64,000 nucleotides of DNA from the human T2T-CHM13v2.0 reference genome, Homo sapiens, in the NCBI RefSeq assembly GCF_009914755.1, contig NC_060941.1. One strand, 5' to 3'. The number at the start of each line of letters is the position of its first letter. Positions within the stretch are counted from its first letter, which is position 1. The position numbers and the translations under genes are program-made. The notes under the pieces were generated by a model. The model had not been told where the DNA came from. It did not search any database and saw only the letters and a list, made by a program, of their open reading frames with translations. Shown piece by piece: positions 49,031 through 56,000 of this stretch.

Positions 49031-51355
49031 ACTCGGCGCCCGAAGCGGCTGGAACGAGCGCACGAGACGCCTCTCCTCTGTCGGCTCAGCGGGCGCCGGA
49101 GCCCAGAGGCGGGAACTGCGACTGCCGAAAGGGAGCGGCCCCCGGGGAACGAGAAGGGCTGAGGCGGGGCCGGCCGGGACTGCTCCTGAAAAAAGCCAGC
49201 GAGAGACCTGGGTCAGACCGGGGCCCGAGGCCCGACCTGCGGAAAAGAACGACGGAGGCTGTAACGGTTTCTGTCATGGCAGGTCTTCTTTCCCGAAATC
49301 TGAGGCTGTCACTACCGCGCCCTGGTTTTCTTTTCTTTTTTCTTTTTTCTTTTTTCTTTTTGAGACGGAGTTTCCCTCTTGTTCCCCAGGCTGGAGTGCA
49401 GTGGTGCGATCTCGGGTTACCACAACGTCCGCCTTCCCGGGTTCAAGTGATTCTGCTGCCTCAGCCTCTCGAGTAGCTGGGATTTCAGGCCCCCGCCACC
49501 ACCCCCAGCTTTTGTATTTTTAATAGAGATGGGGTTTCACCATGTTGGCCAGGCTGGTCTCGAACTCCCGACCTCAGATGATCCGCCCCCCCTCGGCCTC
49601 CCAAAGCGCTGGGATTCCAGGGGTGAGCCACCGCGCCCAGCCCACGTCCTAGTTTTCTCGGCCAAGCCTGGTCATGGGCCTTTTTCAGACACTTTTAGAC
49701 TCAGGGTAACGAACCGGGCCCTGGCCGGGCGCGGCGGCTCATGCCTGTCATCCCAGCACTTTGGGAGGCCAAGGCGGGAGGATCACAAGGTCAGGAGTTC
49801 GAGACCAGCCTGGCCAATATAGTGAAACCCCGTCTCTACTAAAAATACAAAAAATTAGCTTGGCATGGTGGTGCATGCCTGTCATCCCAGCTACTCAGGA
49901 GGCTGAGGCAGGAGAATCTCTTGAACCCGGGAGGCGGAGGTTACAGTGAGCCGAGATCCTCCCATTGCACTCCAGCCCAGGCGACAGTGTGAGACTGTGT
50001 TTCAAAAGAAAAATTATATATATATACAAAAATTAGCTGGGCGTGGTGGTGCATGCCTGTAATCCCAGCTACTCCAGAGGCTGAGGCAGGAGAATCGCTT
50101 GAACCCGGGAGTGGGAGGGTGCAGTGAACCGAGAGCACACCATTGCACTCCAGCCTGGGCAACAAGAGCACAACTCTGTCTCAAAACAAAGAAAAAGAAA
50201 AAAAACGAACTGGGCCCTGTTACAGTTGTCAGGGACAGGGGAGCTCCAGTTTTCACGCCTCAACTTTCCCCTCACACTGATCTTTGTCTTCTCCTGTTTA
50301 ACCTTTTTCCCTCCCTAGGCCCACTATGAATAGGAGCAGGGAATTTGTTAGATGAGGGTGGTGTGGAGTACATGGTACAGAAGAGTTGGACCAAGATCAA
50401 ATAAAGATTGTGGAGGCAGGAATAACTCAGTGAACATTGCTTCAGCTTCTGGCGCTTGGGAGGCCCATGCGGAAGGATGACTTGAGCCCAGCCTGGGCAA
50501 CATAGCGAGACTCCATGTCTATAAAAACGTTTTTTTTTTTTTTTATTTGAGTCGGCATCTCGCTCTGTTGCCCAGGCTGGAGTGCAGTGTCGTGATCTCG
50601 GCTCACTGCAACCTCCACCTCCCGGGTTGAAGCAATTCTCCTGCTTCAGCCTCCCAAGTAGCTGAGACTACGGGCACATGCCACCACACCCGGCCAATTT
50701 TTTGTATTTTTAATAGAGACGGGGTTTCACCATGTTAGCCAGGGTGGCCTCGATCTCCTGACCTCGTGATCTGCCCACCTCGGCCTCCCAAAGTGCTGGG
50801 ATGACAGGCCTGAGCCATATCTTAGCAGTTTCAGAGGCTGAAGCAGGAGGATCTCCTGAGTCCAGGAGGTTGAGGCTGCAGTGAACTGTGATTGCACCAG
50901 TGGACTCCAGCCTGGGTAACAGAGCGAGACCCTGTCTCAAAAAATAAAGTGGGGAGAGGGAGGGATCTTGCCACGTTGCACAGACTGGCCTTAAACTGAG
51001 TTCAAGCAATCCCACCTTGGCCTCCCAAGTAGTTGGGAAACTACAGGCTTGCACCAACGCACCCAATCTTGCATCCTATTTTGTGGCCAAGGGAGCTGTA
51101 TGATTTTGCGTGGAGGATGATGTCATCATAGTTATATTTCAGAAATATTAACAAATATTCCATAGCAATGATTAAAGAGGAGGATAACCAAACGTAATAC
51201 GTGGGAGCAATGAAAATAGAAAGGAAAGGATAAATAGGAATAGCACTATAGAGGGAAGCCACAAGCAGCTGATCAGATTGCAGCTCTTTTTTTTTTTTTT
51301 ACCATTACATATATAACATTTTATTATAATTTAAGGTATAGTCGATAATATAATG

Positions 51356-53086: not shown

Positions 53087-56000
53087 CAGATTGAAGATCT
53101 TATAATAAAAATTGACTTTCCATCTTTCCACCCTGAGAATATTAACAAAAAATGGGAATGCTAGGAACACTTGCTGATGGAATGCAGAGAAAGACAAAGT
53201 TCTTTTAGCACATGTTGGTTCAGAGGATCAGGGATCCGCAGGTACCCAAGGATCACCCAGGTAAAAATGACCACGAAGGAGTTGTAAAAGGGGACACGCA
53301 TTCCAAATAGAAGGGAAGCTGTTGGCCGGGCACAGTGGCTCACGCCTGTAATCCCAGCACTTTGGGAGGCCAAGGCGGGCAGATAATGAGGTCAGGAGTT
53401 TGAGACCAGCCTGACCAAAATGGTGAAACCCTGTGTCTACCAAAAATACAAAAAGTAGCTGGGCATGGTGGCACGCGGCTGTAATCCCAGCTACTGAGGA
53501 GGCTGAGGCCGGAGAATCACTTGAACCTGGGAGGCGGAAGTTGTGGTGAGCTGAGATTGCGCCACTGCACCTCAGCCTGGGTGACAGAGTGAGACTCCAT
53601 ATCAAAAAAAAAAAAAAGAATAAAAGGAGGTGTCAGTCGTATTAAATTCTGCAGAGACATAAGTCAGATTAGCACTGAGGGAAAGCCATTGGATATAGCG
53701 ATTAGGTCATTAGTGACCTTCAAAAGGAGTTTCGAAATGGTGTTGGAAGCCAGATTGCATTTGGTTGAAGCTCAGGGAAGTCGAGAAAGTGGAACTGGTA
53801 AGCATAGGGGTCTCCTGAGAGGAGCAGTGAAGACAGACAGGTAATTTGAGAGCAATGAGTGGCCAATAGGGGTGGCCAAATTAAGGATTTGGTCCACACA
53901 TTCACAAACCTACCTACAAAGACAGCTCTGCTGCCGGGTTGATTACAGGGGCTGCCGTGGCTATGCAGCTGTCTGTGCTGGGGAAAGAAGCTATCGGCCG
54001 TCTCTTTCACAAAGAAGCTTCTGTACAGTGTCTCCCCAGACCCGCCGAAGTCTCTCCAAAAGTGCCTCTTCCTACGTAACTGCTGAGACGGCAGAAACCC
54101 TACACGTAGATTGCTGGTGTGACTGCACTGCCCGTTCTCTCAATACATGGAACTAACGGGCAGACATGGTTGATAGGGCACCAAAAATAGACAGAAACAA
54201 TTTTGATGTAGCATTCGGGATTATAAACAGATATAAAACATCCTGGTGCTGCGCAGAAGTGGCTGTCGTGATACGGTCCTGCGCTTTTCACGGCTGCTGC
54301 GGCCATAGATACTTCACTTGCTATTGAAACGCCTTTGACACAATCTCCAGGTCATAGGTCACAACCCCAAGTGTAAGTCTCCCTGCCTGATAGAAAATCT
54401 GCTTTAATAAGAAACAAGAACTCACTCAGTCCGTCCGGAGAGCCCCTAGATATGTGGCAGTGTACTAAGCACTATGAGAAGGAAATAAGATGTTAAAAAA
54501 TATCATTAACCAGGCTCGGTGGCTCACTTCTGTAATCCCAGCACTTTGGGAATCTGAGGCGGGTGGATCACCTGATGTCAGGAGTTTGAGACCAGCCTGG
54601 CCAACATGGTGAAACCCCTTCTCTACTAAAAATACAAAGGCCGGGCACGGTGGCTCATGCCTCTTATCCCAGCACTTCGGGAGGCCAAGGCGGGCGGATC
54701 ATGAGGTCAGGAGTTCGTGACCAGTCTGGCCAACATAGTGAAACCCCATCTCTACTAAAAATACACAAAAAATTAGCCGGGCATGGGGGTGTAATCCCCA
54801 TGTAATCCCAGCTTCTCAGGAGGCTGAGGCAGGAGAATCACTTGAACCCGGAAGCCAGAGGTTACTGTGAGCTGAGATCATGCCACTGCACTCCAGCCTG
54901 GGTGACAGAACGAGACTCCATCTCAAAAAAAAAAAATAAAAATAAAAGTAAAAATACAAAGATTCGCTGGACATGATGGCGCACACCTATAATCCCAGCT
55001 ACTCGGGAGGCTGAGGCAGGAGAATTGCTTGAACCTGGAGGGAGGAGGTTGCAGTGAGCCTACTCGGGAGGCTGAGGCAGGAGAATCGCTTGAACCCGGG
55101 GGGAGGAGGTTGCAGTGAGCCAAGATCATGCCACTGCACTCCAGCCTGGGTGGCAGAGCAAAACTCTGTCTCAAAAAAAAAAAAAAAAAATCAATAGACT
55201 TTATGGTATTTAAAAAAAAAAACAAAAAAAACCCAGGCTCAGCATAGTGGCTCATGCCTGAAATCCCAGCACTCTAGGAGGCCAAAGTGGGAGGATCGCT
55301 TGAGACCAGGATTTCAAGACCAGCCTGGGCAACACTGTGAGACCCCCGTCTCTACAAAAAATTGTTGGATGCACTGCACATCCAGGTGTTGGCATGCACC
55401 TGTAGTTCCAGCTACTCCGGAGGCTATAGTGGGAAGATCGCTTGAGCCCAGGAGGTGGAGGCTGCAGTGAGCCATGATCACAGCACTGCACTCCAGCATG
55501 GCCAACAGGGCCAGACTCTGTCTTGAAAAAAAGAAAAAAGAAAAAGAACAAAGAAGAAATAAAAAAATCTATGCATGCTTGGTGGCTCATGCCTGTAATG
55601 CCAACACTTTAGGAGGCTTAGGTGGGGGGAATCGCTTAAGCCCAGGAGTTTGAGACCAGTGTAGGCAACATACTGAAACCTTCTCTTTACTAAAAATACA
55701 AAAATTAACGGCACGGTTGTGTGTGCTTGTAGTCCCAGCTACTTAAGAGGCTGAGGAGAGAGAATTGCTTGAGCCCAAGACTTGGAGTTTGCAGTGAGAC
55801 TTGATGACACCACTTTACTCCAGCCTGGGTGACAGACACTATGTCTCAAAAAAACAAAACAAGGCCTGGCGCGGTGACTCACGCCTGTAATCCCAGCACT
55901 TTGGGAGGCCGAGGCGGGCAGATCATGATGTCAGGAGTTCAAGGCCAGCATGACCAACATAGTGAAACCTCTTCTCTACTAAAAATGCAAAAATTAGCCA

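What the first reader, a model, noticed from the sequence alone, without database searches (positions are those of the whole stretch)
51274..53101. SVA with a disabled poly(A) signal and 55-nt 3' transduction, nested in an Alu A-tail
Seen (minus strand, in order): Alu body, A-tract, SVA hexamers to SINE-R end reading GATCAATTTAAAA instead of the usual GATCAATAAAA, A-rich tail (51386-51356), 55 nt of unique AT-rich sequence (51355-51301) with AATAAA at 51325-51320, then 19 nt later a second poly(A) (51300-51287), then the Alu TSD. The Alu TSDs (51274-51288 and 53087-53101, 13/15 identical) enclose the whole unit, so the 55-mer is inferred to have arrived with the SVA. This fits read-through of a source SVA into its flank and provides a barcode for the parent locus.
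Basis: partly seen in the sequence, partly recalled or inferred. Interest (0 to 1): 0.7.

Follow-up and report, generated by a model that had tools for sequence, protein, structure and literature searches.

The report
SVA daughter of a vanished parent

Summary
The anatomy is real.

The 55-mer has exactly four copies in CHM13. Three lie behind SVAs (here, chr15, chr3). The fourth, chr6:158,314,188, has native flanks, sits antisense in an intron of what is very likely ARID1B, and has no SVA, so the source element is missing.

The SVA is a listed member of hs_SVA_DRc (8 copies, all human-specific; PMC6139936). Three other members carry a second transduction, from chr13:44,993,456, also SVA-free. 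Six of eight members therefore trace to two absent sources; one such lost SVA_D source is already in print (PMC12593883).

The 'disabled' poly(A) signal is private to this copy. The chr3 sibling has an intact AATAAA with the same tag, and 4 of 6 transducing members are intact. The distal SINE-R here was likely overwritten by gene conversion from an SVA 154 kb away. The final A14 is largely a target-site duplication of the Alu tail.

Verdict: new member of a known kind, with a well-resolved family history. Interest is modest.

The parts
53087..53101 (-). 5' target-site duplication of the host Alu
   Evidence: 13/15 with 51274-51288; only such pair in the window
52808..53086 (-). Host Alu body (old; AluS-type label is recalled, not tested)
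   Evidence: 84-87.5% identity to the 7 best other Alu hits printed from the window
52786..52801 (-). Alu A-tail = 5' copy of the SVA's own TSD (A15-G), preceded by TT (TT|AAAA, the recalled L1 endonuclease motif)
52720..52785 (-). SVA hexamer repeats
   Evidence: TRF period 6, 52738-52785
52360..52719 (-). SVA Alu-like domain; carries the DRc-clade state at 2 of 3 clade sites, the third is a CpG
   Evidence: columns 253, 346 clade state; 264 not
51891..52359 (-). SVA VNTR, about 470 nt, the shortest of the 7 clade members whose VNTR was measured (likely contracted)
51387..51880 (-). SINE-R (494 nt); same length as the hs_SVA_DRc entry hg19 chr17:1305959-1306452
51473..51724 (-). Minimal likely gene-conversion tract matching the SVA at chr17:1,137,630 (L030); may extend from 51748 to the poly(A) signal
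   Evidence: 6 of 6 informative sites match L030 inside the tract; 9 of 9 upstream sites match the DRc clade; partition p=4e-4
51386..51391 (-). Altered SVA poly(A) signal (AATTTA), private to this copy
   Evidence: 0 of 7 siblings, 0 of 24 other SVAs
51360..51385 (-). Source element's former poly(A) tail, now A/C-patterned (similar in the chr15 sibling, A/T-patterned in chr3)
51301..51359 (-). 3' transduced segment from chr6:158,314,188 downward (antisense in an intron of a gene that is very likely ARID1B)
51320..51325 (-). AATAAA inside the transduced segment, 19 nt before the last A-run; absent from the CHM13 chr6 allele because of a 6-nt indel
51286..51300 (-). A14-G: 3' copy of the SVA TSD merged with any RNA poly(A); overlaps the Alu 3' TSD by 3 nt
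51274..51288 (-). 3' target-site duplication of the host Alu

Best explanation
This is a human-specific SVA_D (subfamily hs_SVA_DRc) sitting in the A-tail of an old Alu and carrying 55-59 nt whose only native copy is on chr6, and it was likely made by L1-driven copying of a read-through transcript from a parent SVA that likely stood at that chr6 site and likely never fixed in the population. SHOWN: the anatomy; the single native chr6 copy, starting at TT|AAAA; no SVA there in CHM13; two sibling SVAs (chr15, chr3) with the same tag; a parallel tag group (chr5, chr10, chr17:44.3 Mb) mapping to an SVA-free chr13 site; intact AATAAA in 4 of 6 tag carriers; a chimeric SINE-R in this copy. INFERRED: (1) an SVA inserted antisense at chr6:158,314,188, 1.26 kb past an ARID1B-like exon. 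(2) Pol II read through its ordinary, intrinsically weak signal and was cleaved 14-19 nt after an AATAAA in the flank, at two sites (chr3 and chr15 end about 4 nt earlier than this copy). (3) L1 ORF2p nicked TT|AAAA in the Alu tail and inserted the cDNA, duplicating the A-run plus G. (4) Some millions of years ago the chr6 allele was lost by drift or selection, while daughters persisted. (5) Later the distal SINE-R of this copy was overwritten by ectopic gene conversion from the SVA 154 kb telomeric. The AATTTA spelling arose in or after that history and did not cause the transduction. Whether chr15 and chr3 came straight from chr6 or through this copy is unresolved.
For: Four copies only, control 0. 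The chr6 flanks are single-copy and continuous with an old dispersed repeat upstream. No SINE-R or VNTR match in 9.5 kb around chr6 or 8 kb around chr13. Siblings are bounded by their own TSDs at unrelated sites: chr3 20/20, chr10 17/17, chr5 14/14, chr17b 15/15. Both donor junctions start at TT|RAAA; local background is 7 of 37 on chr6 and 1 of 14 on chr13. All 8 motif-defined copies (less 3 one-mismatch non-members) match by chromosome the 8 listed hs_SVA_DRc elements, none shared with chimp or gorilla, none on chr6 or chr13. No ARID1B-annotated insertion among 543 non-reference SVAs from 35 people. Pooled non-CpG divergence in the clade is 31 of 5558 sites, 0.56% (95% CI 0.38-0.79), old enough for an unfixed allele to have been lost. 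Direct precedent: a lost SVA_D source inferred at chr13:98.03 Mb, and 16% of transductions without a found source (PMC12593883). Conversion: the best non-self hit of 40 scored (658 candidates) lies 153.8 kb away, and is the only one of 24 examined with all three rare states.
Against: The source itself is not observed in any sequence I could read. No ape or other human genomes were available to the tools, so the chr6 site and the pre-insertion Alu tail were not seen in any outgroup. The CHM13 chr6 allele differs from all three daughters by a 6-nt indel that removes the AATAAA, which needs one extra event. The SVA's own TSD is low-complexity. The chr3 sibling has no poly(A) beyond its TSD, which is unexplained. 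The chr15 TSD is short and ambiguous. TT|RAAA support is modest (joint chance about 0.01-0.02). The window and chr15 share AATT, an A/C tail and two CpG changes, so the extra T may predate the conversion. Two private differences from L030 remain inside the tract (51482, 51460).
Confidence: 0.72

Rival explanations
1. Same transduction, but the chr6 source SVA still segregates at low frequency in living humans.
For: Non-reference source elements exist (9 of 55 in PMC12593883), and that paper leaves 'low allele frequency' open for missing sources.
Against: No ARID1B row and no position beginning 157110-157112 (hg38 estimate from a recalled exon coordinate) among 543 insertions in 35 people. Clade divergence of 0.56% points to an age of millions of years. 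Larger catalogues could not be searched (the held file has no coordinates).
Confidence: 0.08
2. The source fixed and was then removed precisely by recombination between its TSDs.
For: The empty site is clean. PMC6139936 names precise deletion as a possible but less likely route.
Against: It would have to happen twice (chr6 and chr13) in one 8-member subfamily.
Confidence: 0.06
3. No SVA ever stood on chr6. L1 reverse transcriptase started on a chr6 RNA and switched template to an SVA RNA; this copy (the longest tag) was the founder and gave rise to chr15 and chr3.
For: A template-switch chimera (SVA-CKS1BP) is proposed in PMC12593883. The AAAA at the junction offers microhomology to a poly(A) tail. 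This copy has the longest tag, so it can be the parent of the other two.
Against: It needs a polyadenylated antisense intronic RNA, and a second independent such event on chr13. Both junctions sit at TT|RAAA. The chr10 copy combines the chr20 element's 5' flank with the chr13 3' flank, which is simplest if an intermediate element stood on chr13.
Confidence: 0.08
4. One reading: the source carried a disabled poly(A) signal (AATTTA), which caused the read-through and was inherited by this copy.
For: This copy lacks a canonical hexamer at the SVA end. The chr15 sibling also has one extra T.
Against: chr3 has an intact signal with the same tag. All three chr13-tag carriers contain AATAAA. AATTAAA is recurrent (5 of 24 unrelated SVAs) and contains ATTAAA. 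AATTTA is private, and the region abuts a likely conversion tract.
Confidence: 0.04

Closest known systems
SVA 3' transductions with an unrecovered source (PMC12593883; e.g. the SVA_D inferred lost at chr13:98,030,050)
   Same: Unique flank behind the SVA tail, inside TSDs; native origin site without an SVA; human-specific SVA_D.
   Different: A different locus. That paper lists the same tag in two calls but gives chr15:28,848,854 (the sibling) as its only origin and does not name chr6. Here two missing sources account for 6 of 8 members of one subfamily.
hs_SVA_DRc subfamily (PMC6139936)
   Same: This element is listed there (hg19 chr17:1305959-1306452); 8 members, all human-specific.
   Different: In the passages and tables I read, no transductions, source loci or chimeric SINE-R are given for these elements. 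This copy lacks 3 of 7 SINE-R clade states.
Gene conversion between SVA copies (flagged as 'suspected parallel insertion/gene conversion' in PMC6139936 suppl. 1; 'locus-conversion' in bioRxiv 2021.07.12.451456)
   Same: Subfamily states switch part-way along one element while both flanks are kept.
   Different: A likely donor is identified here, 154 kb away on the same strand.
AMAC/SLC35G SVA transduction family (Xing et al. 2006; paper not held; its source lacking an SVA is recalled, not checked)
   Same: Several SVA daughters share one transduced segment.
   Different: That event moved a whole gene; this one moved 55 non-coding bases.

Membership tests
SVA 3' transduction | Non-SVA sequence directly after the element's tail, followed by an A-run and enclosed by TSDs | tested here: met
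   the SVA's own TSD is low-complexity here, but the chr3 sibling has a 20/20 TSD around the same tag
SVA 3' transduction | Second genomic copy of the segment in native flanks (origin locus) | tested here: met
   chr6:158,314,188
SVA 3' transduction | Poly(A) signal about 10-40 nt upstream of the new 3' end | tested here: met
   AATAAA 19 nt upstream here, about 14-16 nt in siblings; spacing criterion from PMC9311842
SVA 3' transduction | Source SVA present at the origin (confirmatory, not required: 16% lack it in PMC12593883) | tested here: not met
   no SVA in CHM13; none in the hg19 list
SVA 3' transduction | SVA and tag both absent at the orthologous ape site | not testable with these tools
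   no ape genomes offered; the SVA's absence in panTro4/gorGor5 is taken from PMC6139936 suppl.; the tag itself not checked
hs_SVA_DRc | Clade-specific SINE-R states, 5' part (51799, 51798, 51796, 51749) | tested here: met
   4 of 4; motif found in the DRc entry of suppl. 3
hs_SVA_DRc | Clade-specific SINE-R states, 3' part (51721, 51571, 51539) | tested here: not met
   0 of 3, inside the likely conversion tract; membership rests on the 5' states, the Alu-like domain, the shared tag and the author's own listing, so this is a chimeric member
hs_SVA_DRc | Listed among the 8 members; human-specific | tested here: met
   8 of 8 chromosomes agree between (after dropping 3 non-members); SINE-R length 494 agrees; no formal liftover run
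Ectopic gene conversion tract | Contiguous run of donor states with recipient states and flanks kept outside it, non-reciprocal | tested here: met
   9 of 9 upstream sites DRc, 6 of 6 downstream sites L030, p=4e-4; L030 shows no DRc states
Ectopic gene conversion tract | Exclusion of a double template switch during reverse transcription | not testable with these tools
   proximity of the donor (154 kb) favours conversion but does not prove it

The most novel reading that the evidence does not exclude
hs_SVA_DRc spread in early hominins through short-lived source elements that never fixed: one antisense in an ARID1B intron, purged by selection on that dosage-sensitive gene, and one on chr13 that was itself a daughter of the surviving chr20 copy. 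Their tags give two exact addresses at which vanished insertions can be sought in archaic and pangenome data. The daughter here, with its own poly(A) signal lost, may read through toward YWHAE 2.3 kb downstream on the same strand.
Probability: 0.2. Interest if true: 0.55.

Novelty: new member of a known kind. Interest (0 to 1): 0.33.

Why it matters
Transduced tags record insertions that no longer exist. This case gives base-pair addresses for two such vanished human-lineage SVAs (chr6:158,314,188, likely ARID1B; chr13:44,993,456) and shows that most of one small subfamily came from them. That supports the view that active sources are often transient, and it is directly testable in pangenome and archaic data. 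It also shows two traps: a 'broken' poly(A) signal in a daughter need not be the cause of read-through, and two published 'offspring' of the chr15 sibling look like paralogous sites of a segmental duplication. The element is a human-specific insertion 2.3-3.8 kb upstream of YWHAE overlapping a RefSeq enhancer, but no function was tested.

Tried and rejected
Source SVA at or near the chr6 site: none in 9.5 kb (only Alu-like matches). A second, SVA-bearing copy of the chr6 flank: none (40 of 368 candidates scored; the other listed hits are an old dispersed repeat plus the chr17 and chr3 daughters). The 55-mer as part of the Alu's original insertion or as local sequence: rejected, since it follows two other SVAs at unrelated sites. 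Disabled signal inherited from the source: rejected (see rivals). This copy as a basal clade member rather than a chimera: rejected, because the non-clade states are contiguous and include three rare states shared with L030. The chr15 sibling as a currently active source: I first accepted this from PMC12593883, then withdrew it. The two listed 'offspring' appear to coincide with the two closest paralogs of its flank, and their listed TSDs equal its own 3' flank (no liftover). Three one-mismatch hits (chr8, chr14, chr22) lack the other clade states and were dropped from the clade. One search left out the rearranged chr17:44.3 Mb copy and subtracted 6 window and 2 chr5 differences as conversion-derived. 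Looking up L030 in the PMC6139936 table by an estimated hg19 position found no human row (inconclusive). One search failed on a script error and was redone. The polarity of the 6-nt indel at chr6 could not be determined. Xing 2006 and Damert 2009 were not held.
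Full report
Observation. The Alu TSDs match 13 of 15 and are the only such pair in the window. The SVA has its own duplication, A15-G at 52801-52786 and A14-G at 51300-51286, starting after TT. So the last A-run is mostly duplicated Alu tail, and the insertion also duplicated the first three bases of the Alu's 3' TSD.

Where the tag comes from. A genome search with 51287-51360 gave four matches. An exact-pattern search at up to three mismatches gave the same four, with none for the control. 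On chr15 and chr3 the tag follows an SVA tail and stops about 4 nt earlier than here. On chr6 it lies in plain sequence that continues on both sides and begins at TT|AAAA at 158,314,188. The 600-nt chr6 neighbourhood is single-copy apart from an old dispersed repeat upstream. No SINE-R or VNTR match exists in 9.5 kb around it. An ARID-domain exon lies 70 kb away on the plus strand, and a 90-nt AG/GT-bounded Pro/Gln/Ser-rich exon ends 1,256 nt from the junction. I take the gene to be ARID1B (name recalled), with the tag antisense. The chr6 allele is 6 nt shorter than all three daughters and so lacks the AATAAA; which state is ancestral could not be tested.

The subfamily. A SINE-R motif shared by the three copies found 11 sites at up to one mismatch. 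Eight share further states and three do not. The motif is in the hs_SVA_DRc entry of PMC6139936 suppl. 3. That subfamily has 8 members, all human-specific, on the same chromosomes as my eight, including hg19 chr17:1305959-1306452, and none on chr6 or chr13. Three other members (chr5, chr10, chr17:44.3 Mb) share a second tag of 87-200 nt. Its only native copy is chr13:44,993,456, beginning at TT|GAAA, again without an SVA. The chr10 copy also carries 25 nt of the chr20 member's 5' flank inside its TSD, which implies chr20 to a lost chr13 element to chr10. At one VNTR site the chr6 group keeps the outgroup state while the other five share a derived one, so the chr6 group branches first. Pooled non-CpG divergence over 7 members is 31 of 5558 sites, 0.56%. 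This is near the recalled per-lineage human-chimpanzee figure, so the insertions are likely several million years old, long enough for an unfixed allele to vanish.

The poly(A) signal. Among the seven siblings, six contain AATAAA at the SVA end and one (chr15) has AATTAAA; none has AATTTA. Among 24 other SVAs, 5 have AATTAAA and none AATTTA. Four of the six tag carriers are intact. Read-through of an intact but weak signal is the standard account, and AUUAAA is listed there as a used signal. A disabled signal is therefore not needed and is not shared.

A chimeric SINE-R. This copy has clade states at 51799, 51798, 51796 and 51749, and none at 51721, 51571 and 51539. Its best non-self match over 51440-51735, among 40 scored of 658 candidates, is an SVA at chr17:1,137,630, 153.8 kb away on the same strand. 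That element agrees at 6 of 6 informative sites from 51724 to 51473 and at 0 of 9 upstream (partition p=4e-4). It is the only one of 24 examined with all three rare states, and it ends in AATTAAA. Two private differences remain. Ectopic gene conversion after insertion is the simplest reading; a double template switch is not excluded. The window and chr15 also share AATT, an A/C-patterned tail and two CpG changes, while window and chr3 share one other CpG change. The origin of the extra T, and whether this copy parented chr15 or chr3, stays open.

Is the source still around? In PMC12593883's table of 543 non-reference SVAs from 35 people, ARID1B has no hit, and neither do hg38 positions 157110-157112 thousand, estimated from a recalled exon coordinate; long cells in that file are cut. 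The tag occurs there twice, in calls assigned to the chr15 sibling as source, with no chr6 origin given. The two closest paralogs of the chr15 flank are chr5:7.24 Mb (97-98%) and chr15:20.45 Mb (96-97%), both empty in CHM13 (5 non-self loci examined of 40 scored). These appear to be the positions of those two calls, whose listed TSDs equal the sibling's own flank. I therefore do not count them as evidence of present activity (no liftover was run).

Comparison with what is known. SVA 3' transductions are common (58% of 217 transductions were 3'-only). Sources are missing for 16% of transduction-bearing insertions, and a lost SVA_D source is inferred explicitly at another chr13 site. Lost source elements are also inferred in PMC6139936. 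This is a new member of a known kind. I found no paper naming the chr6 origin or this family history (searches). However, Xing 2006 and Damert 2009 were not held, and the CHM13 transduction table (bioRxiv 2021.07.12.451456, Table S13) is closed; any of them may list it.

What I saw of each paper. PMC6139936: passages, section 5, suppl. 1 whole, search rows of suppl. 2 and 3. PMC12593883: passages, section 10, search rows of its supplements. PMC10681720: passages and one small supplement without hits. bioRxiv 2021.07.12.451456 and PMC9311842: passages. Other papers: search listings only. Labels recalled and from no call: AluS, ARID1B as gene name, GOLGA, THE1, MER5A, actin pseudogene, the L1 endonuclease motif, and ARID1B dosage sensitivity.

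Verdict. The feature is real and is an ordinary class of event. Interest 0.33.

Noticed in passing
L019-L022; G000:C13:44993456: A second 3' transduction group (chr5, chr10: 200 nt; chr17:44.3 Mb: 87 nt) in the same subfamily maps to a chr13 site with no SVA in CHM13.
   Followed up: yes
L024 (chr10:94.85 Mb) and L023 (chr20:40.11 Mb): The chr10 SVA carries 25 nt of the chr20 SVA's 5' flank inside its TSD, implying chr20 to a lost chr13 element to chr10.
   Followed up: yes
L055 (chr5:7244701) and L056 (chr15:20448173): The two published 'polymorphic offspring' of the chr15 sibling appear to sit at paralogous sites of a segmental duplication (GOLGA-type, recalled): likely mis-mapping or interlocus conversion rather than new retrotransposition.
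   Followed up: partly
G000:C17:455674, 482963, 1137630: Three of the 39 non-self best hits to the conversion tract lie in the first 1.2 Mb of chr17; the 482,963 copy shares two of the three rare states. Possible local conversion network among 17p13.3 SVAs.
   Followed up: partly
L003:1496-1510 (chr3:132.106 Mb): The chr3 sibling has no poly(A) tail beyond the As of its 19-20 nt TSD. It sits in an LTR-like repeat (THE1, recalled) and has a much expanded 1.7-kb VNTR.
   Followed up: partly
L010 (chr5:80.79 Mb): This clade member has reverted at two neighbouring clade sites (a short likely conversion tract) and sits in what looks like an actin processed pseudogene (recalled).
   Followed up: no
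L027:835-1450 (chr17:44.30 Mb): 5'-rearranged clade member: a VNTR fragment plus about 380 nt of non-SVA sequence precede the truncated Alu-like domain, all inside a 15/15 TSD (possible 5' transduction from another SVA).
   Followed up: no
L030 (chr17:1.136-1.139 Mb): The likely conversion donor is itself inserted in the A-rich linker of an Alu whose right monomer seems to be missing, with a short extra piece after its tail.
   Followed up: no
L002:1100-1500 (chr15:26.625 Mb): The chr15 sibling lies about 320 nt upstream of an ATG-bearing exon of a GOLGA-like gene copy (recalled), on the same strand.
   Followed up: no
window 48946-52785: The SVA points toward YWHAE on the same strand, ending 2.3 kb upstream of its start. 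The RefSeq enhancer 51003-51618 overlaps the tag, the tail and the last 230 nt of the SINE-R.
   Followed up: no
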